A program made the position numbers and the translations under genes. DNA of 7,521 nucleotides from IMG/VR virus record IMGVR_UViG_3300029214_000136, positions 1-7,521 of that record; one strand, given 5' to 3'. This document shows, in pieces, positions 399-7,506 of this stretch. The notes beneath the pieces are model-generated. The model had not been told where the DNA came from. It did no database searches and saw only the letters and a list, made by a program, of their open reading frames with translations. This stretch comes from a virus (lineage: Duplodnaviria > Heunggongvirae > Uroviricota > Caudoviricetes). Position 1 is the first letter of the stretch, and each line of letters opens with the position of its first letter.

Positions 399-1232
399 TT
401 ATTTCTGTAATCGGTTTATATTAACGTAAAGCATCTCGATTAGTTCTTTTGCATTTTTACTATAGTGCAATTCTCTATGGCAATTCGGACAAAGGGCAAC
501 ACAGTTATCTGTTGTATCAGCACCACCTGAAGACAGGGGAATTACATGATGCACTTCCAAGTATGGGCTTCCATCATTTAAATAAAACGGAGCATTTTTA
601 CCACAGTTTTCACATATACCTTTACTTTGCTGTAAAATCCAAGCTTTTACCATTGGGTCTCGGACATAAACTTTTTGTAGTCTTTCTACCTCAACTGGTT
701 TCCTGGAGCCCTCGGGTTGACTCAACGTTTTCTTAATTAATTTATTAACCCTCATATTCAGAAGCGATTCATCATCTGTAGGCTGTGAAAGCTCTGATAG
801 TTCTCCATGTATTATAGACGCCCAAAAACTGTCACTATAAATACCTGGAACATTTATCAATATTCGTTTCGTTCTATTGCCGGAAGGAATTTCCTTTCTC
901 CCCGTACGACTAAAATAAGCCTGATAACCACACATCTTCAAGCGTATATCGCGGGGGCTATTACCAATCAAAGTAAAATATTCACCAGGATGGATTTTTC
1001 TTTCATCCAAAGAATGCATATGTTTTCTGACTAATGATGACGCCAGATATACTACGACTTGGGATACACCAGAATCAACCAACCGTTCAATGATATAATC
1101 AAGAGCGATATTGTAATCTTTGTTTCTGTCACCCGGCCCCCACGACTCAAGGATTAGACCATAAACGCCATCCTCTTCACCTATCGAACACTCAGCTTTC
1201 AGTTCAATTCCATTATTATCAAAAACATGCAT
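399..1232 (-). CDS. mcrA: McrA, 5-methylcytosine-specific type IV restriction endonuclease (HNH nuclease), 277 aa
   Basis: The translation from the ATG at 1232 begins MHVFDNNGIELKAE and carries the C-terminal HNH motif CENCGKNAPF...EVHHVIPLSSGGADTTDNCVALCPNCHRELH. The ORF track begins 5 codons earlier at a TTG (1247); I prefer the ATG at 1232. Confidence 0.93.
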   Translation of the reverse strand: MHVFDNNGIELKAECSIGEEDGVYGLILESWGPGDRNKDYNIALDYIIERLVDSGVSQVVVYLASSLVRKHMHSLDERKIHPGEYFTLIGNSPRDIRLKMCGYQAYFSRTGRKEIPSGNRTKRILINVPGIYSDSFWASIIHGELSELSQPTDDESLLNMRVNKLIKKTLSQPEGSRKPVEVERLQKVYVRDPMVKAWILQQSKGICENCGKNAPFYLNDGSPYLEVHHVIPLSSGGADTTDNCVALCPNCHRELHYSKNAKELIEMLYVNINRLQK

Positions 1233-1338
1233 AATATTAATCTTCAATCAATTTTTTACGACAATACTACTTTTATTGATAAAATTGCAACAAGTTGCTG
1301 TTGTTTTATTTTCTTTTGTACACAAAGTGTCTTTAACT

Positions 1339-1893
1339 TTATTTATCCTCTGCAGGAAACCTCTTATACAAAGTTGACACACCAACATCATAGATAATCG
1401 CCACCTTCTGGCGAGGAACTCCTGATGCAATTAATCGTCCGGCCTGTGCCCATTGTTCTGGTGTAAGTTTGGGACGACGTCCACCAATTCGCCCCTGTGC
1501 GCGAGCAGCTTCCAGTCCAGCTTTTGTTCGTTCAACAATCAGTTCACGCTCCATTTCAGCCAAGGCACCCATCACATGAAAGAAAAAGCGTCCCATTGGT
1601 GTGCTGGTATCAATTGAATCCGTCAGACTACGAAAGCTGATGCCTCGTTCGCGCAACTCCTCCACCAACACGACAAGATGCCGCATACTACGCCCCAGCC
1701 GATCCAGCTTCCAGACAACCAGAGTGTCACCTGCCGATAATGTCCTGAGCAGTTTTTTCAGTCCCGGCCTTTCGGACTTTGTGCCGCTTATCTTGTCTTC
1801 AAAAATCAGCTCGCATCCTGCACAGTTCAGCGCATTACGTTGTAGATCTGTGTTCTGGTCATTTGTTGATACGCGTACATAGCCAATAAGCAT
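1339..1893 (-). CDS. pinE: Pin serine recombinase (DNA invertase of the Gin/Hin/Pin family), 184 aa
   Basis: The translation MLIGYVRVSTNDQNTDLQRNAL...GRRPKLTPEQWAQAGRLIASGVPRQKVAIIYDVGVSTLYKRF has the resolvase catalytic N-domain with the serine in YVRVST and a C-terminal helix-turn-helix. A GGGGGAG ribosome-binding site lies about 6 nt upstream of the ATG at 1893; the track's longer ORF to 1929 is probably an over-extension. Confidence 0.93.
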   Translation of the reverse strand: MLIGYVRVSTNDQNTDLQRNALNCAGCELIFEDKISGTKSERPGLKKLLRTLSAGDTLVVWKLDRLGRSMRHLVVLVEELRERGISFRSLTDSIDTSTPMGRFFFHVMGALAEMERELIVERTKAGLEAARAQGRIGGRRPKLTPEQWAQAGRLIASGVPRQKVAIIYDVGVSTLYKRFPAEDK

Positions 1894-1919
1894 GGTAGCT
1901 CCCCCTGACAAAAGCAGGA

Positions 1920-2294
1920 ATGATGCCATTTGCTCGTTATTTCTGCATTTTCATAAACGTTGGTTTGGGAGAAGCGGCAAAACGAAATGTGGGAACAGGG
2001 GAAAATCAGATACCTGATATGTCATCATATGCATCAGGTTCAGGCTGGCGAAAAATGCCAGATGGTTCAATTGAACAGTGGGGACGAATTAGTTTTCCTG
2101 GTGAACACGGGCCTGTATCCGCCAATGTTTCATTCCCGATTCCATTTACACAGACACCGGGCATTGTAATTGTGTGCGATGGTGGTTTCGGGGGCGGGAA
2201 TATGTGGGGGGCGACCAACTGGAGCACTACCGGCTTCATAGCTCACTGCAATTATGGTCTTGAAGGTGGTGCGTTTTTCGCTAAGGGCTGGTAA
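1920..2294 (+). CDS. stfE: Side tail fibre variable C-terminal cassette (stf', promoterless alternative segment in this orientation)
   Basis: The ORF ends ...[36 protein letters not shown], is Gly-rich like tail-fibre tips, and its stop overlaps the start of the downstream tfa gene (TAATGATG). The functional 5' boundary is probably the pix crossover at 1948-1973 rather than the ATG at 1920. Confidence 0.7.
1948..1973. other. pix/gix/hix-type 26-bp crossover site for the Pin invertase
   Basis: The sequence TTTTCATAAACGTTGGTTTGGGAGAA is the reverse complement of TTCTCCCAAACCAACGTTTATGAAAA, which fits the imperfect dyad of hix/gix sites (TTCT...AAACC-AA-GGTTT...GA.AA). It lies next to the pin 5' end and inside the 5' end of the tail-fibre cassette, as in G/P inversion systems. 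Confidence 0.7.
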
Positions 2295-2770: not shown

Positions 2771-2798
2771 NNNNNNNNNNNNNNNNNNNNNNNNNNNN
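2771..2798. other. Run of 28 N: assembly or scaffold gap of unknown true length
   Basis: Directly visible. It truncates the endolysin 3' end and places an invertible tail-fibre cassette next to a lysis cassette with nothing between. Confidence 0.95.
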
Positions 2799-3239
2799 TT
2801 TGAATTTTGCAATCAGGCTGTCAGCCTTATGCTCGAACTGACCATAACCAGCGCCCGGCAGTGAAGCCCAGATATTGCTGCAACGGTCGATAGCCTGACG
2901 AATATCACCGCGATCAATCATCGGTAAAGCGCCACGCTCTTTAATCTGTTGCAGTGCCACAGCGTCCTGGCTTTTCGGAGAGAAGTCTTTCAGGCCAAGC
3001 TGCTTGCGGTAAGCATCCCACCAGCGTGAAAGAAGTTGATAACGGCCTGCAGCTGTTGATTTGAGTTTCGGGTTTAGCGTGACAAGTTTGCGAGGGTGAT
3101 CGGAGTAATCAGTGAAGAGTTCTCCACCGACAATAACGTCATAACCGTGGTTACGTGTCGGTTGTCGCCCGTTATCCGTTCCCTCTGACCATGCCACCAT
3201 ATCCAGGAAAGCTTTACGCTGGGAATTTAGTACCTGCAT
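2799..3239 (-). CDS. R: Phage endolysin, lambda R-like lytic transglycosylase, 3' end lost in the N gap
   Basis: The translation MQVLNSQRKAFLDMVAWSEGTDNGRQPTRNHGYDVIVGGELFTDYSDHPRKLVTLNPKLKS...GQFEHKADSLIAKFK is nearly collinear with lambda R as I remember it. An RBS TAAGGAG precedes the ATG at 3239. The track ORF runs through the Ns to 2709; that extension is an artefact. Confidence 0.9.
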
Positions 3240-3242
3240 AAA

Positions 3243-3569
3243 TTACTCCTTAGAGCCACCAAACTTGTTACCGATTACTCTCATTGCAGCCCCACGAATA
3301 GCATCAACACCGATCAGCCCCACCCCACCACCAATGGCAACAGATAGTGATTTAGGCCATCCGACATACTCAAGAGCGGATGCAAAAGTCAGCGTCAGAG
3401 CGCCACAGAGTAGAATTTCGAGTGTTTTTCGCTTCCAGCCGCCACCACCGCCAAAATAGGCAATACGTAAACCAGCCATAACAATCGACATAATCACTGC
3501 GCCCAGCGGTGTGTCTCCACGCCACCAGCTCTGGACCAACTCCAGCCATGTATTTGGGTTATGAGGCAT
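3243..3569 (-). CDS. Putative holin (class I-like, lambda S-type topology), 108 aa
   Basis: It lies immediately upstream of the endolysin, with its stop 3 nt from the endolysin ATG. The protein is small with hydrophobic stretches (GAVIMSIVMAGLRIAYFGGGGGW, LEILLCGALTLTFASAL, SVAIGGGVGLIGV) and a charged C-terminal tail, resembling lambda S in the region MAGLRIAYFGGG versus MAYLRGRYNGG. Confidence 0.7.
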   Translation of the reverse strand: MPHNPNTWLELVQSWWRGDTPLGAVIMSIVMAGLRIAYFGGGGGWKRKTLEILLCGALTLTFASALEYVGWPKSLSVAIGGGVGLIGVDAIRGAAMRVIGNKFGGSKE

Positions 3570-3707
3570 TTGTAGTTATCTCTCACCTCGCTGATACAGC
3601 AGGTGCAAATTGAGGAAACATCATGTACCGCAAATCAGAAGCGGAAACGTCAAAGAAGCCGAGTCAATGGATAACTGCGGGATAGGCTAGGACCAAGGAA
3701 TCCCCAG

Positions 3708-3743
3708 ACCCAGAAACGACAAAACCCGCTCGATGGCGGGTTT
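3708..3743 (-). terminator. Intrinsic terminator on the minus strand, in the tR' position upstream of the holin
   Basis: An 8-bp GC-rich stem AAACCCGC/GCGGGTTT (3722-3729 and 3736-3743) with loop TCGATG is followed on the minus strand by TTTTGTCGTTTCT. On the plus strand the stem is followed by only TTT, so it is mainly minus-strand directed. Confidence 0.5.
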
Positions 3744-3745
3744 AA

Positions 3746-3860
3746 GCTGTGTGGCGAAGTGAGCACACTTAACAGATTACGATATTTTTTGCGTACGCGT
3801 TAGTGTTTTGATAGAATTTTCAGCCACATAAAAATTCATTCTTATAATTCGGGATATATA
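3746..3860 (+). promoter_or_regulatory. Divergent intergenic control region: candidate promoter for the ORF A/B operon, and possibly the late promoter for the lysis genes on the other strand
   Basis: A consensus TATAAT hexamer lies at 3843-3848, with TTGATA at 3808-3813 but at non-canonical spacing. The palindrome GCGTACGC(GT) lies at 3791-3800 and GGGA lies 7-10 nt before the ATG at 3861. The exact promoter elements are not resolved. Confidence 0.3.
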
Positions 3861-5036
3861 ATGGATATAACTTGTTTAGAATGTGGCAATGTTCTTGACG
3901 ACCCAACTGTAGCTTGCGATAAATGCGGTGCCACGCCTCATGTTGTAGTGCTGGGCAAACAATCGTACTTTCCTATTGGTGCTGTAACAGCAAATCTTGA
4001 AAAAAATGATTCAAGAGCATTTGATTATCGATTAGGTGAAGTTTGGGATCTAAAAAATGAAGTCACATCTGAATTCATAACCAGAATTGAGAAAAAATTT
4101 AGCCGAAAAAACAAATTTCATAACTTCCTAGACTCAGATCACAACCCTTCATCCATTCCTACGATCCTAAAAAAATACATTAATAAAAATAATGAATTCA
4201 TTGATTTATCTAGAGCTATAATAGAGAAGCTTAAACATAATGCTAATAACGAATCGAGAGTTGCCCAACTTCAGGGGGGGAGCGTTGTTTTCATCCACTA
4301 TAAGTCTACCGAACCAGAGGATTTGGGGAAACTTCTAATCGTAATGGTTGATAAACAAAGCGCCTATGACTTTGATTCGGATAAGTTGACCCCAACAAGA
4401 TTAAATCCAATTAATACCGATGCCTTACGGCAGGCTGCGATGTTCGATTTAACTTTATTCGAAGCCAGTTATCCAGAAAACAAGGGTGACTCATATGTAC
4501 ATTTCTTGCAAGGTAAATCTAAAAGCGATTTTTTCAAAGACTCATTAGGTTGCCGACATGATTCGGACAATAAAAGAAGCATTCAGCAATTATTCAGTGC
4601 TATAGATATTTTTGCTAGTAAAAACTCACTCGGTCGTGTACTGCGTGATACTATTGACAATGAAGTTAAATCCTTACTGGAAAAAAAATCAAAAGATAAA
4701 CACGGAAATAAGTCCGTTAAGATAGAGGATATTTCAAAAATAATTGACTCATGCCTGACTGATTCACACAAATGTAAGGGAACGTTTGTCGATTTTGTTA
4801 ATCTTAATGGTTTCCAGATTGACCCTCAATTTGAACCAACTCCTAAAGCAGCTGAAAGCGCGCTTACAATTGAAGTGGCAGATAACGACAATAATTTTAA
4901 GTTGAAAATAATGCGTGGAGCTATTGGAGACGAAAAGTCAAATAAGCCTGTAATTCTCACTGACAACAAATGCGAAATTGTGATAAAATTGAGTCAGGCA
5001 AATTATGATGAACTCAAAAGATATAGAGACAGCTAA
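3861..5036 (+). CDS. Hypothetical protein (391 aa): N-terminal CxxC-x10-CxxC zinc ribbon fused to a domain resembling nucleoid-associated protein NdpA/YejK
   Basis: The ORF is long and uninterrupted. Cysteines lie at residues 5, 8, 19 and 22 (CLECGNVLDDPTVACDKCG). The segment GGSVVFIHY...LLIVMVDK...LNPINTDALRQAAMFDLTLFE...YVHFLQGKSKSDFFKDSLGC aligns by eye with E. coli YejK GGFVLFCHY...LLVAVLSN...LDINHADIVARIDLTEWE...[23 protein letters not shown]. Composition is AT-rich and Lys/Asn-rich. Confidence 0.8.
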   Translation: MDITCLECGNVLDDPTVACDKCGATPHVVVLGKQSYFPIGAVTANLEKNDSRAFDYRLGEVWDLKNEVTSEFITRIEKKFSRKNKFHNFLDSDHNPSSIPTILKKYINKNNEFIDLSRAIIEKLKHNANNESRVAQLQGGSVVFIHYKSTEPEDLGKLLIVMVDKQSAYDFDSDKLTPTRLNPINTDALRQAAMFDLTLFEASYPENKGDSYVHFLQGKSKSDFFKDSLGCRHDSDNKRSIQQLFSAIDIFASKNSLGRVLRDTIDNEVKSLLEKKSKDKHGNKSVKIEDISKIIDSCLTDSHKCKGTFVDFVNLNGFQIDPQFEPTPKAAESALTIEVADNDNNFKLKIMRGAIGDEKSNKPVILTDNKCEIVIKLSQANYDELKRYRDS

Positions 5037-5038
5037 TA

Positions 5039-6253
5039 ATGACAATTGCTGATGACTTATCAAGATTAGCGCAGATTATTAACGGAGCCTCAAGCAGAGT
5101 TGAGGGCTACTACACTGTCATAAGTCTTGAAGAAAGCATTGTTATTGTAAATAGTTCTGAAATAATTAGACTGTTACAATCTATAGGTTATAAAAAGGCA
5201 ACAACCTGCATCGAAAATAATGAAATTTGGCTAGATCGCCAAGCTTCATCTTGGGATGATGCTATAATTTATGAGAATGTTGAGTCTTTTTGGTCTAGAG
5301 TAAACACCCAAAACGCTCTTCCGAAAAATTATATCATCGGAACGCCGTTAATACTCCCTACTTCTAAGAATGAAAGCATCGAAAAAATCCATATTTTCTT
5401 TATGTGGAAAGATATCCTTTCATTAATTTCTGATCATCATAACAGTGACTGCTCTGTCTTATTTTTCACCAATGAAGACAAAAGTTATACAGTCGAACTC
5501 ACGCATTTTTTACAATATAGCGAGATTAATCGCTTATCGAACTCGTCTCTTAAATATGAAATTATAAAGGAGCTTCTCGACACAATAAAAATCAATGATT
5601 TACACAAAAGCGAGCGCAAGCTCGTTATACGCTCAGCCATAAACGAAGTATTTAAAGCAAATGGTACGTTCAATTTCTTTGACTTGCTTAACTCTACTGA
5701 ACTCGTCAGGAAAAAATATGATGAACTATATGAGATTTACACAAAGAGGTTTTCTGTAAATAAAATTCTTAACGAACTCGATGAGAAAAATCTTGAGTTC
5801 ACGAGTAAAATTAACGAATTCATATCATCTAATCAGACAAAAGCATTGACTATTCCCGGTGCATTAATAGCAGCTGGTGGCTTAGTGAAGGCTAATGAAA
5901 CAACCGAAGCAATATTGATTATCGCAGGACTTTGGATGATAAAAAAAGTCAATTACATTTCTATTGAGATATTCAATGAAACATTCGACAACTTACGTTC
6001 TCGAGTGGAGTCCGCTTTCGATAAGTATTTAAAGTTTGAAGAAAATAAAGAAATCAAAGATAATGCAGATAGTATTAAGAGTAGCATTACAGGTTTGATT
6101 GATAAAGCTAAAAAAAGGATGAGAACTGTTAAATATCTCGCATCAGCCATGTTTTATGGAGGCCTTATTTACGTTGGATATAAACAGTTCCCAGTCTTTT
6201 TTGAAAAATCGGCAGTAAATCTATTTTATTTTTTATGCCATACTATAAGCTAA
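5039..6253 (+). CDS. Hypothetical protein (404 aa) with hydrophobic, possibly membrane-associated segments; translationally coupled to ORF A
   Basis: The start ATG is 2 nt after the ORF A stop (TAATAATG). Hydrophobic stretches occur at about residues 268-300 (ALTIPGALIAAGGLV...AILIIAGLWMI) and 366-380 (LASAMFYGGLIYVGY). I recognise no catalytic motif. Confidence 0.8.
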   Translation: MTIADDLSRLAQIINGASSRVEGYYTVISLEESIVIVNSSEIIRLLQSIGYKKATTCIENNEIWLDRQASSWDDAIIYENVESFWSRVNTQNALPKNYIIGTPLILPTSKNESIEKIHIFFMWKDILSLISDHHNSDCSVLFFTNEDKSYTVELTHFLQYSEINRLSNSSLKYEIIKELLDTIKINDLHKSERKLVIRSAINEVFKANGTFNFFDLLNSTELVRKKYDELYEIYTKRFSVNKILNELDEKNLEFTSKINEFISSNQTKALTIPGALIAAGGLVKANETTEAILIIAGLWMIKKVNYISIEIFNETFDNLRSRVESAFDKYLKFEENKEIKDNADSIKSSITGLIDKAKKRMRTVKYLASAMFYGGLIYVGYKQFPVFFEKSAVNLFYFLCHTIS

Positions 6254-6589
6254 CATTGCTAAACAGCCATCAACAAACCCCATTGCAGTTTGCAGTTCCT
6301 TCCTAATTGTGCCATCAGAGCATTTTCTCTTCTTCGCAATAGTGCGTAATGAGATACCGATAACAAAGTGGGCGATGATGAGCTCATATTCCTCTGGTTT
6401 ATACCTTCTCAACCGAGCCACACAACTGTCTATCATGATGCCTTCGTCATCATCACACTGAATCCGTGACTTTTTGCCATGAGGTAAAAGTCCCTTGAAA
6501 CCAGCCGCTATCGGCTGCCAGTCCACTCCGCTATTGTCTGAAGCAGCCCAAGCTCCCCAACGATCCATTACTTCATACATATCACGCAT
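6233..6589 (-). CDS. Late-gene antiterminator of the Q family (QuuD / phage 82 Q-like), 118 aa
   Basis: The translation MRDMYEVMDRWGAWAA...WQPIAAGFKGLLP...RIQCDDDEGIMIDSCVARL...CSDGTIRKELQTAMGFVDGCL matches the pattern I recall for QuuD (LERWGAWAA...IAAGFKGL...CDDD...CSDG...LQKAEG). The ATG at 6589 has a GGAGA RBS; the track ORF begins at a TTG at 6604. Confidence 0.85.
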   Translation of the reverse strand: MRDMYEVMDRWGAWAASDNSGVDWQPIAAGFKGLLPHGKKSRIQCDDDEGIMIDSCVARLRRYKPEEYELIIAHFVIGISLRTIAKKRKCSDGTIRKELQTAMGFVDGCLAMLAYSMA

Positions 6590-6606
6590 CAACTTTCTCC
6601 ACAAAA

Positions 6607-7506
6607 TCAGGCCAGCACACCAATTGCCAGCGCACGATCGATAAAACGAAATATCAACTCCAGCTGGGAGCCATACTTCTCTTCAAATGCCACGGTATCC
6701 GCATGCAGCTCGTCGTGATGCTTTCTGCACAAAGGCAGCACAAAGAATCGGGATTCGAAGAAATGCGGCTGCGTCTCGCGCGGATTTGCGGGACTGGTGA
6801 TGTTCTTGCCGAACATGCAGCCTTTCGCCGTCAGCGACCAGAATTTTTTGATGTTGTTAATCGCGGTACGGCTGTATCGTTCGCGCTGCTCGACGATCCC
6901 CAGCTTCACCATCTGGTGATATGCCTGATTAGCTGTCAGGCGGATACCATACTGCTTCAGCAGTGCACTCAGTGACAGCGTGGGGCGGCTTGAGCCATCA
7001 GGCGCGTCAGCAGGAGCATCAATGGCATAGCGCGGTGCCAGATTCGGTAAGCCAACAGCCTCCTGGAGTTTCTGACAGGCTCCAAGCACTGAAGAGTTAG
7101 ACAGATTTAACTCCCGGCGCATAAAGTCCAGCAGAATCACGCCAGCCTGCATCTTGTCAGCAGCCTGTCCGGATAATTTTTCAGGTGCGCTGGTTACCAT
7201 GTCGAAAGTACGGATCACCTTCAGATGGAATGACGGGCTGATCCACATTGCATAGGCATACACCAGTTCTTTGCAGACATACGTCCCCTGGTTATTTCCG
7301 CCACGAATAACGTTAACTGGCTCTATATTGACCGAGTTGCAAATCTGCAACTCGCTTATTAAACGTTCAGTTTGCTCATTGCGGAGCCAGAATGCAGGCT
7401 TATGCTTATCCAGAGAACCGGCAGCCCTGTGCAGATCGTTCAGGCTGTAACGACCATAAGCATCACGACGAACTTCAATACCATCAATGACCATCAGATT
7501 ATTCAT
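6607..7506 (-). CDS. KilA-N domain protein (phage antirepressor or Roi-like), 299 aa
   Basis: The N-terminus MNNLMVIDGIEVRRDAYGRYSLNDLHRAAG...KPAFWLRNEQTERLI fits the KilA-N pattern. A GAGGAG RBS lies upstream of the ATG at 7506, and the stop at 6607-6609 leaves about 17 nt before the Q start at 6589. Its position just upstream of Q is typical for lambdoid nin/ant region genes. Confidence 0.7.
   Translation of the reverse strand: MNNLMVIDGIEVRRDAYGRYSLNDLHRAAGSLDKHKPAFWLRNEQTERLISELQICNSVNIEPVNVIRGGNNQGTYVCKELVYAYAMWISPSFHLKVIRTFDMVTSAPEKLSGQAADKMQAGVILLDFMRRELNLSNSSVLGACQKLQEAVGLPNLAPRYAIDAPADAPDGSSRPTLSLSALLKQYGIRLTANQAYHQMVKLGIVEQRERYSRTAINNIKKFWSLTAKGCMFGKNITSPANPRETQPHFFESRFFVLPLCRKHHDELHADTVAFEEKYGSQLELIFRFIDRALAIGVLA

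What the first reader, a model, noticed from the sequence alone, without database searches (positions are those of the whole stretch)
6233..6253. Convergent 21-bp overlap between the cargo operon 3' end and the Q gene 3' end: the insertion junction sits inside the Q C-terminus
Seen in sequence: the ORF B stop codon is at 6251-6253 and the Q stop codon (minus strand) is at 6233-6235, so the two genes converge and overlap by 21 bp. The base composition changes from AT-rich to balanced at about 6250-6260. The last few Q codons (...LAYSMA*) are therefore encoded by the overlap and differ from the QuuD tail I remember. Inference: the insertion may have rebuilt the Q C-terminus and leaves no room for a late promoter directly downstream of Q. 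Convergent transcription could also couple Q expression to cargo expression.
Basis: partly seen in the sequence, partly recalled or inferred. Interest (0 to 1): 0.5.

Follow-up and report, generated by a model that had tools for sequence, protein, structure and literature searches.

The report
Defence cassette wedged between Q and its promoter
The 21-base overlap is real: it is the edge of a swappable, backward-facing anti-phage gene cassette that lambdoid prophages carry between the late-gene activator Q and the promoter Q acts on, an arrangement already present in E. coli K-12 and therefore only moderately new.

Summary
ORF B stops at 6251-6253 and Q (minus strand) stops at 6233-6235. They overlap by 21 bp in the same codon register, and GC steps from 0.20 to 0.40 at about 6250.

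Q alleles that carry other cargo lose DNA similarity at about 6265, inside the Q 3' end, and each cargo type has its own Q tail. However, this is not a local scar. The same NA37/ORF B pair abuts a Q gene with a 21-, 30- or 37-bp overlap in Citrobacter, Raoultella, Klebsiella and Yersinia.

The late promoter is not lost. A conserved block at 3740-3803 (minus strand) carries a dyad that co-varies with Q clade, a TANNNT hexamer and an invariant TGTTAAGAGTGG motif. A terminator (3722-3743) and the holin gene follow it. The block lies 2,459 bp beyond the Q stop.

In distant Q relatives with long C-terminal tails the block lies 21-37 bp after the Q stop, followed by lysis genes. In every close relative where I located the block (33 loci with at least 77% Q identity), 1-3 ORFs antisense to Q fill that gap, and several match defence families.

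K-12 DLP12 (quuD-nmpC-essD) has the same layout. The overlap itself looks like compaction; a regulatory role was not tested.

The parts
6233..6253 (.). Convergent 3'-3' overlap of ORF B and Q (21 bp), in the same codon register
6233..6589 (-). Q antiterminator gene, 118 aa, Q21/Q933W family (PF06530). The ORF is open upstream to a TTG at 6604.
   Evidence: Pfam E=3.2e-47, model positions 1-115 of 118. RefSeq CDS in the 100%-identical APEC O2-211 locus. Remote match to the Q21 structure 6p18, E=1e-3. dN/dS about 0.03.
6236..6265 (-). Cassette-specific Q tail (CLAMLAYSMA). DNA similarity to Q alleles with other cargo collapses here. As protein, CLAML still fits the family pattern, so only AYSMA (6236-6250) is non-Q sequence.
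6260..6262 (+). Ancestral ORF B stop codon (TAA), used by the 407-aa homologues (...KHC*). The window has an earlier TAA at 6251-6253.
5039..6253 (+). ORF B, 404 aa: mildly acidic N-terminal 270 aa (pI 5.3) and a hydrophobic C-terminal part. Candidate membrane effector resembling Pag2B.
   Evidence: architecture compared with bioRxiv 10.64898/2026.04.06.716658
3861..5036 (+). ORF A, 391 aa: YejK-like nucleoid-associated protein (NA37) with an N-terminal Cys-rich stretch. Resembles Pag2A.
   Evidence: PF04245 E=1.2e-23
3808..3835 (+). Promoter-like site for the cargo operon (TTGATA-16-AAAAAT, 9 of 12), back to back with the late-promoter block
   Evidence: consensus match only
3740..3803 (-). 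Putative late promoter PR'/qut block. It contains the dyad GCGTACGC (3791-3798), which co-varies with Q clade; a -10-like TAATCT (3774-3779; TANNNT in 50 of 50 loci); and a near-invariant TGTTAAG(A/T)GTG(G/C)TCAC (3759-3774).
   Evidence: The same block lies at the Q stop in the 933W-like Stx2 phage 86 and before essD in K-12 DLP12.
3712..3743 (-). Intrinsic terminator (tR'-like) after the block: AAACCCGCCATCGAGCGGGTTT followed by a T tract
   Evidence: 44 of 50 related loci have a hairpin plus T tract 29-46 nt after the block, with different stem sequences.
3243..3569 (-). Lambda-family holin, the first late gene downstream of the block and terminator
   Evidence: PF05106 E=5.7e-25
3805..6265 (.). 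Approximate extent of the exchangeable cassette (cargo promoter, ORF A, ORF B, Q tail)
   Evidence: Homology with other-cargo loci ends at 3780-3819 on the left and starts at 6267-6288 on the right for the two closest Q alleles, L002 and L003

Best explanation
The overlap is the Q-proximal edge of an exchangeable cassette. The cassette is transcribed antisense to Q and lies between the Q antiterminator gene and Q's own late promoter and loading site (PR'/qut).

In the empty state of this Q family, PR' starts 21-37 bp after the Q stop, and in 933W-type phages the Q stop lies inside the promoter-proximal dyad. There is therefore no spare intergenic DNA. Any cargo placed there has to cut into the Q C-terminal extension. 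In the loaded clade, Q has lost the ...D(I/V)RLEMD... extension and ends 0-6 residues after the conserved G-x-x-x-M-L motif, in whatever the cassette supplies.

In this window the cassette is a two-gene system, NA37 nucleoid-associated protein plus a membrane protein, that resembles type II PANGU. Q reads 5 codons into the antisense of the ORF B C-terminal codons before meeting a TAA. ORF B ends at a TAA that is the antisense of a Q Leu codon.

Q binds DNA at PR' and rides RNA polymerase. Moving PR' 2.46 kb away should therefore not stop it from switching on holin and lysis genes. This is inferred from the reported Q control of the DLP12 lysis cassette across nmpC.

Cassettes appear to be swapped by homologous recombination, using the Q core and the PR'-terminator-holin segment as arms.

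The overlap itself is most likely neutral compaction. Because no terminator separates the two genes, antisense read-through in both directions is expected, but this was not shown.

Shown: the anatomy, the conservation and the breakpoints. Inferred: promoter function, Q activity, the recombination mechanism and defence activity.
For: - Breakpoints at about 3780-3819 and about 6265 against E. coli prophages and Stx phages that carry other cargo.
- The conserved block plus terminator lies after the cargo and before the late genes in all of them.
- In 9 distant Q relatives the block lies 21-37 bp after the Q stop (74 and 167 bp in two more); in L054 two holins and an endolysin follow it. In the 933W-like phage 86 the Q stop lies within the dyad.
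- All 33 loci (window included) with Q at least 77% identical in which the block was located have 630-2,655 bp between the Q stop and the block. Apart from one 80-aa ORF overlapping the Q 3' end in L024 and one 86-aa ORF that starts at the block in L037, every ORF there is antisense to Q. Spacing at the Q stop runs from -30 to +34 bp in most cases.
- No E. coli genome of 5,426 has this Q and the PR'/holin segment within about 1 kb of each other.
- The dyad co-varies with Q clade, and TANNNT is kept in 50 of 50 loci.
- The same cargo with a Q overlap occurs across genera.
- The Q tail tracks the cargo (78-93% identity) more closely than the Q core does (74-84%, dS saturated).
- The cargo is diverse and rich in defence-related families: KwaB, PDC-S20/KAP NTPase, PDC-M53A, NA37 with RelA_SpoT, SDH protease.
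- K-12 DLP12 has the same layout. Q-dependent control of its lysis cassette is stated in PMC7918800.
- The canonical Q cassette is defined in bioRxiv 10.1101/651190.
Against: - The promoter assignment is comparative only. The sigma-70 scan found no site on the minus strand in 3500-3950 at its threshold. The -35 is poor, and TANNNT could be the sigma-dependent pause element rather than the -10.
- The window's block has two substitutions in the otherwise near-invariant motif.
- The prophage in the window is degraded: it has a KilA-N::DUF968 fusion and an N-run. Q may therefore not be functional in this strain.
- Six close relatives had no detectable block within the fetched DNA.
- Whether short-tailed Q proteins antiterminate was not tested.
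Confidence: 0.75

Rival explanations
1. One reading: a recent insertion of the cargo operon into this particular prophage truncated Q and removed or displaced its late promoter, leaving a scar.
For: Homology breaks inside the Q 3' end. GC steps at about 6250. Insertion-free relatives have a different Q tail.
Against: The identical junction geometry with the same cargo occurs in at least four other genera at 83-87% nucleotide identity with dS of 0.5-0.95, so it is old. All close Q relatives in which the block was located are loaded, with other cassettes. PR' and the terminator are intact on the far side. No repeats or mobile-element genes flank the cargo.
Confidence: 0.05
2. The terminator-less convergent overlap is a selected regulatory device. 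In the lysogen, cargo transcription runs antisense through Q and damps leaky Q expression. After induction, early transcription through Q runs antisense across the abortive-infection cassette and shuts it off, protecting the prophage's own lytic cycle.
For: No intrinsic terminator on either strand at the junction. Apart from two short Q-sense ORFs at the edges of the gap (L024, L037), all cassette ORFs in 37 loaded loci are antisense to Q and abut it tightly, mostly -30 to +34 bp, which is too short for a hairpin terminator. The orientation bias is striking.
Against: The overlap as such is not conserved between cassettes, and gaps of 200 bp or more also occur. The tail residues of both proteins vary freely within the same cassette. 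The overlap length fits chance read-through. The antisense orientation could simply keep cargo out of Q-dependent late transcription and allow lysogenic expression. There are no expression data.
Confidence: 0.15
3. Q here is a decaying, non-functional remnant whose C-terminus was destroyed, so the overlap has no consequence.
For: The window's prophage is degraded: an 895-bp deletion fuses KilA-N to DUF968, and structural genes are absent from the window. The Q tail is shorter than in canonical relatives.
Against: Q covers Pfam model positions 1-115 of 118. dN/dS is about 0.03 against cross-genus orthologues. The same short-tailed Q type sits in complete prophages such as APEC O2-211 and in Stx-converting phage genomes, upstream of stx.
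Confidence: 0.05

Closest known systems
E. coli K-12 cryptic prophage DLP12: quuD - nmpC::IS5 - PR' - essD/rrrD/rzpD
   Same: It has a PF06530 Q, then antisense cargo, then the same conserved block (TGTTAAGAGTGGTTAC, 0 mismatches) plus a terminator, then the holin gene. Q-type control of this lysis cassette is reported (PMC7918800).
   Different: The cargo is a porin gene, not a defence pair. There is a 189-bp gap between the quuD stop and the nmpC 3' end, so no overlap. QuuD keeps the DIRLEMD... extension (127 aa). The dyad is of the TTTACGTACGTAAA type.
Canonical Q-dependent regulatory cassette (phage 21, 933W, lambda): Q gene immediately followed by PR', SDPE, tR' and late genes
   Same: Same Q family (Q21/Q933W, PF06530), same block, and a terminator before the late genes.
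   Different: Here 2,459 bp of antisense cargo separate Q from PR', and Q lacks the C-terminal extension. In phage 86 the Q stop lies inside the dyad, 19 bp before the block.
Stx prophage cargo (stx, tRNAs) in the Q-S interval
   Same: Accessory genes sit in the Q-to-lysis interval of lambdoid phages. Stx2a_1447 and Stx1_EH1992 carry both kinds of cargo.
   Different: The stx genes lie downstream of PR'/tR' in the sense orientation and depend on Q (established knowledge). The cassette here lies upstream of PR', is antisense, and presumably has its own promoter.
Prophage and satellite defence hotspots (P2/P4 hotspots, PMC9122126)
   Same: Variable, defence-rich cargo lies between conserved phage genes. 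A 41%-identical homologue of this same gene pair sits next to a D5-type primase in a Pectobacterium element.
   Different: A different phage family and a different location. Here one flank is inside a coding sequence, so a cassette-specific protein tail is created.
Type II PANGU (Pag2A YejK-like NAP plus Pag2B TM effector), bioRxiv 10.64898/2026.04.06.716658
   Same: Two-gene operon of an NA37 protein followed by a protein with an N-terminal soluble domain and a C-terminal hydrophobic part. The tested type II system came from E. coli.
   Different: No sequence of the published system was available, so identity is unverified. PADLOC v2 has no model that matches.

Membership tests
Q21/Q933W-family antiterminator (PF06530) | Sequence membership in PF06530 over the full domain | tested here: met
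   E=3.2e-47, residues 6-120, model positions 1-115 of 118. Remote match to the Q21 structures 6p18 and 6jnx, E=1.2e-3.
Q21/Q933W-family antiterminator (PF06530) | A cognate PR' with Q-binding element, sigma-dependent pause element and terminator ahead of the late genes | tested here: inconclusive
   A conserved block with a clade-specific dyad, TANNNT and an invariant motif, followed by a terminator and the holin gene, is present. No transcription or binding data exist, and the -10 versus SDPE assignment is unresolved.
Q21/Q933W-family antiterminator (PF06530) | Antitermination activity | not testable with these tools
   Needs a reporter or in vitro transcription assay.
Canonical Q regulatory cassette | PR' lies immediately downstream of the Q gene | tested here: not met
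   The block lies 2,459 bp after the Q stop. No promoter-like site occurs in 6050-6700. Empty relatives have it 21-37 bp after the stop.
Lambdoid moron / prophage cargo hotspot | Variable gene content between conserved flanks at one position in related prophages | tested here: met
   41 protein clusters among 46 cargo ORFs in 26 loci. The flanks are conserved.
Lambdoid moron / prophage cargo hotspot | Own promoter and terminator, and a composition different from the phage backbone | tested here: inconclusive
   GC is 34.8% against 46-51% in the flanks. There is a weak promoter-like site at 3808-3835. No terminator was found.
Type II PANGU defence system | YejK-like NAP (NA37) sensor gene | tested here: met
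   PF04245 E=1.2e-23, residues 64-376.
Type II PANGU defence system | Adjacent effector with an N-terminal acidic DNA-mimic domain and a C-terminal TM region | tested here: inconclusive
   N-terminal 270 aa have pI 5.3. One 19-residue window exceeds hydropathy 1.5, and further hydrophobic stretches lie in the C-terminal third. No structure or sequence comparison with Pag2B was possible.
Type II PANGU defence system | Anti-phage activity that depends on both genes | not testable with these tools
   Context supports a defence role: homologues lie next to BstA_C and in a primase-bearing element.
Functional antisense/convergent-transcription switch (excludon-like) | Overlapping transcripts with a reciprocal effect on expression | not testable with these tools
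   Only the absence of terminators is shown.

The most novel reading that the evidence does not exclude
The Q-PR' gap is a dedicated, orientation-locked slot. Defence cassettes there are transcribed into Q with no terminator. Lysogenic cassette transcription would then silence leaky Q expression. Prophage induction would send early transcription antisense through the abortive-infection cassette, switching off the prophage's own suicide system just when it replicates. The cassette-specific Q tail would be part of that interlock.
Probability: 0.15. Interest if true: 0.65.

Novelty: new member of a known kind. Interest (0 to 1): 0.4.

Why it matters
The finding places the missing late promoter and shows that Q-family antiterminators tolerate two things: separation from their loading site by kilobases, and replacement of their C-terminal tail by arbitrary cassette sequence.

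It also marks the Q-PR' gap of Q21/Q933W-type prophages across Enterobacterales as a compact place to look for new defence genes. Its two flanks are easy to recognise (the Q core and the TGTTAAGAGTGG block). In 26 loci it held 41 protein clusters, many of them unannotated.

For Stx phages with this Q type, it shows that an antisense cassette sits between Q and the promoter that drives stx.

Tried and rejected
- A chimeric query (holin-PR' joined to Q) was run against 5,426 E. coli genomes to find an empty site. No place covered both halves. Empty sites were found only among Qs of 35-49% identity in other genera.
- PADLOC on ORF A and ORF B gave no hit.
- Rfam on the whole window gave nothing meaningful; the only match was a snoRNA at E=0.6.
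- The sigma-70 scan did not call PR' on the minus strand, so the promoter assignment rests on comparison.
- Folding the junction on both strands gave no terminator.
- Literature searches for a described Q-PR' defence hotspot found none in the held library. This does not prove that none exists.
- The two DLP12 Q papers (PMID 23378572 and 25998262) are not held.
- No supplements are held for the PANGU preprint, so no sequence comparison was possible.
- I considered and rejected an ORF-calling artefact, because both ends are fixed by stop codons and conserved in orthologues.
- I considered and rejected a transposon or integrase insertion, because no such genes or terminal repeats were seen in 3570-6600.
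- I did not run a structure prediction of Q. Q sequences from the fetched loci may not be submitted, and the result would not change the verdict.

Full report
**The window**

The window is the right-hand part of a degraded e14-like prophage at icd. From left to right it contains:
- an icd fragment (1-165);
- mcrA (399-1247, minus strand);
- a Pin invertase gene (1339-1929, minus strand);
- tail-fibre remnants;
- a run of N (2772-2798);
- an endolysin gene and a lambda-family holin gene (3243-3569, minus strand);
- a two-gene plus-strand operon, ORF A (3861-5036) and ORF B (5039-6253);
- a minus-strand Q gene (6233-6589);
- a KilA-N::DUF968 fusion ORF.

Positions 2799-6746 are 99.97% identical to a complete prophage of E. 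coli APEC O2-211.

ORF B ends with TAA at 6251-6253. Q ends with TAA (TTA on the plus strand) at 6233-6235. The genes converge and share 21 bp in one codon register, and each stop codon is the antisense of a Leu TTA in the other gene. GC is 0.20 in 6220-6249 and 0.40 in 6250-6279.

Both genes are real and under purifying selection. Q matches PF06530 at E=3e-47, ORF B has 69 homologues, and dN/dS is 0.03-0.12. In the Q register, the antisense of the cargo carries a stop about every 21 codons. Q's 5-codon run into the cargo is therefore what chance read-through would give.

**Where the junctions are**

E. coli prophages and Stx phages with closely related Q genes carry entirely different genes at this position:
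- TIGR04255 plus two hypothetical genes;
- a hypothetical gene plus KwaB;
- a 248-aa protein;
- an SDH-type Clp protease;
- unannotated pairs or triplets in Stx2a_1447 and Stx1_EH1992.

Their similarity to the window stops at 3780-3819 on the holin side. For the two closest alleles (L002, L003) it resumes at 6267-6288 on the Q side. A column-by-column comparison of the Q 3' ends shows 70-90% identity up to about 6265 (codon G109/C110) and 50% or less after that.

As protein, residues 110-114 still follow the family pattern of two hydrophobic residues, then S/C, then M/I, then L/V. Strictly, only AYSMA (6236-6250) is foreign to Q.

**It is not a local scar**

ORF B homologues of 86-90% identity in Citrobacter, Raoultella, Enterobacter and Klebsiella are 407 aa long and end ...CHTISKHC. 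In every locus I fetched, the NA37/ORF B pair converges on a 118-aa (in one locus 124-aa) PF06530 Q. The overlap is 30 bp for the 407-aa forms and 21 bp for the 404-aa forms. The surrounding prophage backbones differ in their holins and in the genes upstream of Q.

The window reads TAA CAT TGC TAA at 6251-6262. The ancestral stop is therefore at 6260-6262, and the window form has an earlier stop.

Cross-genus similarity runs from 3742 to at least 6589 at 83-87%. The Q tail segment (78-93%) tracks the cargo (84-88%) better than the Q core does (74-84%, synonymous sites saturated). This fits a cassette that includes the Q tail and recombines within Q.

More distant homologues give a mixed picture:
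- A 38%-identical ORF B in Yersinia overlaps a 150-aa Q by 37 bp.
- A 41%-identical homologue lies next to a D5-type primase, with no Q nearby.
- A 33%-identical homologue lies next to a BstA_C gene, with no Q nearby.

**The late promoter is displaced, not lost**

On the minus strand, 3803-3740 reads CTAACGCGTACGCAAAAAATATCGTAATCTGTTAAGTGTGCTCACTTCGCCACACAGCTTAAAC. An intrinsic terminator follows (3743-3722 plus a T tract), and then the holin gene.

This block occurs after the antisense cargo in all cargo variants and in all the cross-genus loci. In the two Stx phages it lies after the antisense cargo and before the stx genes.

Across 50 loci the block shows the following features:
- a TANNNT hexamer in all 50;
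- a near-invariant TGTTAAGAGTGGTCAC directly after the hexamer;
- a terminator-like hairpin with a T tract 29-46 nt further on in 44 loci, with many different stem sequences;
- an upstream dyad that changes with Q clade: GCGTACGC for Qs at least 77% identical to ours, GCGGTCCGC for the 54-57% clade, TTTACGTACGTAAA for the 44-49% clade, and TTCGTTACGAA for two others.

This is the anatomy of a Q loading site as defined for Q21: a Q-binding element, a -10-like pause element and a terminator ahead of the late genes (bioRxiv 10.1101/651190). I cannot tell whether TANNNT is the promoter -10 or the pause element, and the consensus promoter scan did not call the site.

**The empty state**

I scanned one genome per species with a Q alignment and obtained 73 loci.

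In 9 loci with Q 35-49% identical, the block lies only 21-37 bp after the Q stop (74 and 167 bp in two more), and these Qs have long tails such as ...LEMDRYVSREPESRLAAGA. In L054 the order is Q, 34 bp, block, terminator, two holin genes, GH108 endolysin. In the 933W-like Stx2 phage 86 the Q stop lies inside the dyad, 19 bp before the block, upstream of the tRNA genes.

In contrast, every locus with Q at least 77% identical in which the block was found (33 loci, window included) has 630-2,655 bp in between. That gap holds 1-3 ORFs. Apart from one 80-aa ORF overlapping the Q 3' end in L024 and one 86-aa ORF that starts at the block in L037, all are antisense to Q. The 3' end of the last ORF lies mostly 19-34 bp from the Q stop, or overlaps it by 4, 8, 12, 21 or 30 bp in unrelated cassettes.

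No E. coli genome of 5,426 has this Q and the PR'/holin segment within about 1 kb of each other.

The empty configuration thus leaves no spare DNA between Q and its promoter. This explains why cassettes cut into the Q C-terminal extension.

**What the cargo is**

ORF A is a YejK-like NA37 protein (E=1e-23). ORF B has a mildly acidic N-terminal two-thirds and a hydrophobic C-terminal third.

A 2026 preprint describes type II PANGU as such a pair: the Pag2A NAP sensor plus the Pag2B effector, which has an N-terminal DNA-mimic domain and a C-terminal TM region. One tested system came from E. coli (bioRxiv 10.64898/2026.04.06.716658). I could not compare sequences, so I treat this as a match of architecture, not as shown membership.

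Other cassettes in the same slot include KwaB (E=1e-149), PDC-S20/KAP NTPase (E=1e-175), PDC-M53A, an NA37 gene with a RelA_SpoT gene, an SDH protease and an MBL-fold protein. Five of the ten representatives I tested hit PADLOC models. The 46 cargo ORFs from 26 loci form 41 clusters.

**A precedent**

K-12 DLP12 has the same layout: quuD, then antisense nmpC::IS5, then the block (an exact match to TGTTAAGAGTGGTTAC) and a terminator, then essD. Q-type control of that lysis cassette is reported in the literature, as cited in PMC7918800. The architecture is therefore not new in kind. What this window adds is a different cargo and a very tight junction in which Q and the cargo gene borrow each other's last codons.

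**Mechanism and confidence**

I am fairly confident (0.75) of three things: the overlap is the edge of a cassette nested between Q and PR'; PR' is at 3740-3803; and the Q tail is supplied by the cassette.

The overlap itself most likely has no function of its own. Spacing varies from -30 to more than +200 bp among cassettes, and the tails of both proteins vary within one cassette type.

No terminator separates the two genes on either strand. Antisense read-through is therefore plausible in both directions, and the almost universal antisense orientation is notable. A regulatory interlock between the cassette and Q remains possible (about 0.15) but was not tested.

The idea of a recent local insertion is largely refuted. 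The idea that Q is a dead remnant is unlikely, given dN/dS of about 0.03 and the presence of the same Q type in complete prophages and Stx phage genomes.

Noticed in passing
window 6607-7506 (junction repeat 6736-6746): The 299-aa ORF is an in-frame fusion of the KilA-N N-terminus with the DUF968 C-terminus. It arose from a deletion of about 895 bp relative to APEC O2-211 and all other fetched relatives, with an 11-bp repeat at the junction.
   Followed up: partly
window 2772-2798: A run of 27 N lies inside the endolysin region. To its left the sequence switches to tail-fibre assembly, pin and mcrA (the right end of e14), whereas APEC O2-211 continues with Rz, iss, HNH and terminase. This is either a scaffold join, a masked stretch or a large deletion.
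   Followed up: partly
window 3759-3774 (minus strand): The window and APEC O2-211 read TGTTAAGTGTGCTCAC where most of the 50 related loci read TGTTAAGAGTGGTCAC. These are two substitutions in the most conserved part of the putative Q loading site.
   Followed up: no
window 3791-3798; loci L004, L005, L046-L057, L068, L078: The dyad-symmetric element upstream of the TANNNT hexamer changes with Q clade (GCGTACGC, GCGGTCCGC, TTTACGTACGTAAA, TTCGTTACGAA). It is a candidate Q-binding element. The Q21 site is described as a direct repeat, so the symmetry is worth checking.
   Followed up: partly
L093 2920-2975 (Stx2 phage 86): In the 933W-type phage the Q stop codon lies inside the dyad TTTACGATCGTAAAA, so the end of the Q coding sequence and its putative binding site overlap.
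   Followed up: no
L034 (Kosakonia sp. S29), L025 (Shigella flexneri), L026 (Rosenbergiella): Other NA37-containing pairs occupy the same slot. L034 has NA37 plus a RelA_SpoT (toxSAS-like) gene that overlaps Q by 12 bp. L025 and L026 have NA37 plus a membrane-type partner of about 400 aa.
   Followed up: partly
window 6611-6631 and 6655-6673 (minus strand): Two terminator-like hairpins with T tracts lie just upstream of the Q start, inside the 3' end of the DUF968 reading frame. They might gate entry of early transcription into Q.
   Followed up: no
window 3861-3950 (ORF A residues 5-25): ORF A begins with a CxxC...CxxC stretch (CLECG...CDKCG) ahead of the NA37 domain, and there is no recognisable Shine-Dalgarno sequence before its ATG.
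   Followed up: no
L001 4738-5028: In APEC O2-211 the serum-survival gene iss sits just after the lysis genes on the opposite strand. This is a second antisense accessory gene in the same late region.
   Followed up: no
L013 5367-6930 and L014 5382-7489: The Stx2a_1447 and Stx1_EH1992 phages carry unannotated antisense gene sets between Q and the block that precedes stx. None of the representatives I tested matched Pfam or PADLOC.
   Followed up: partly
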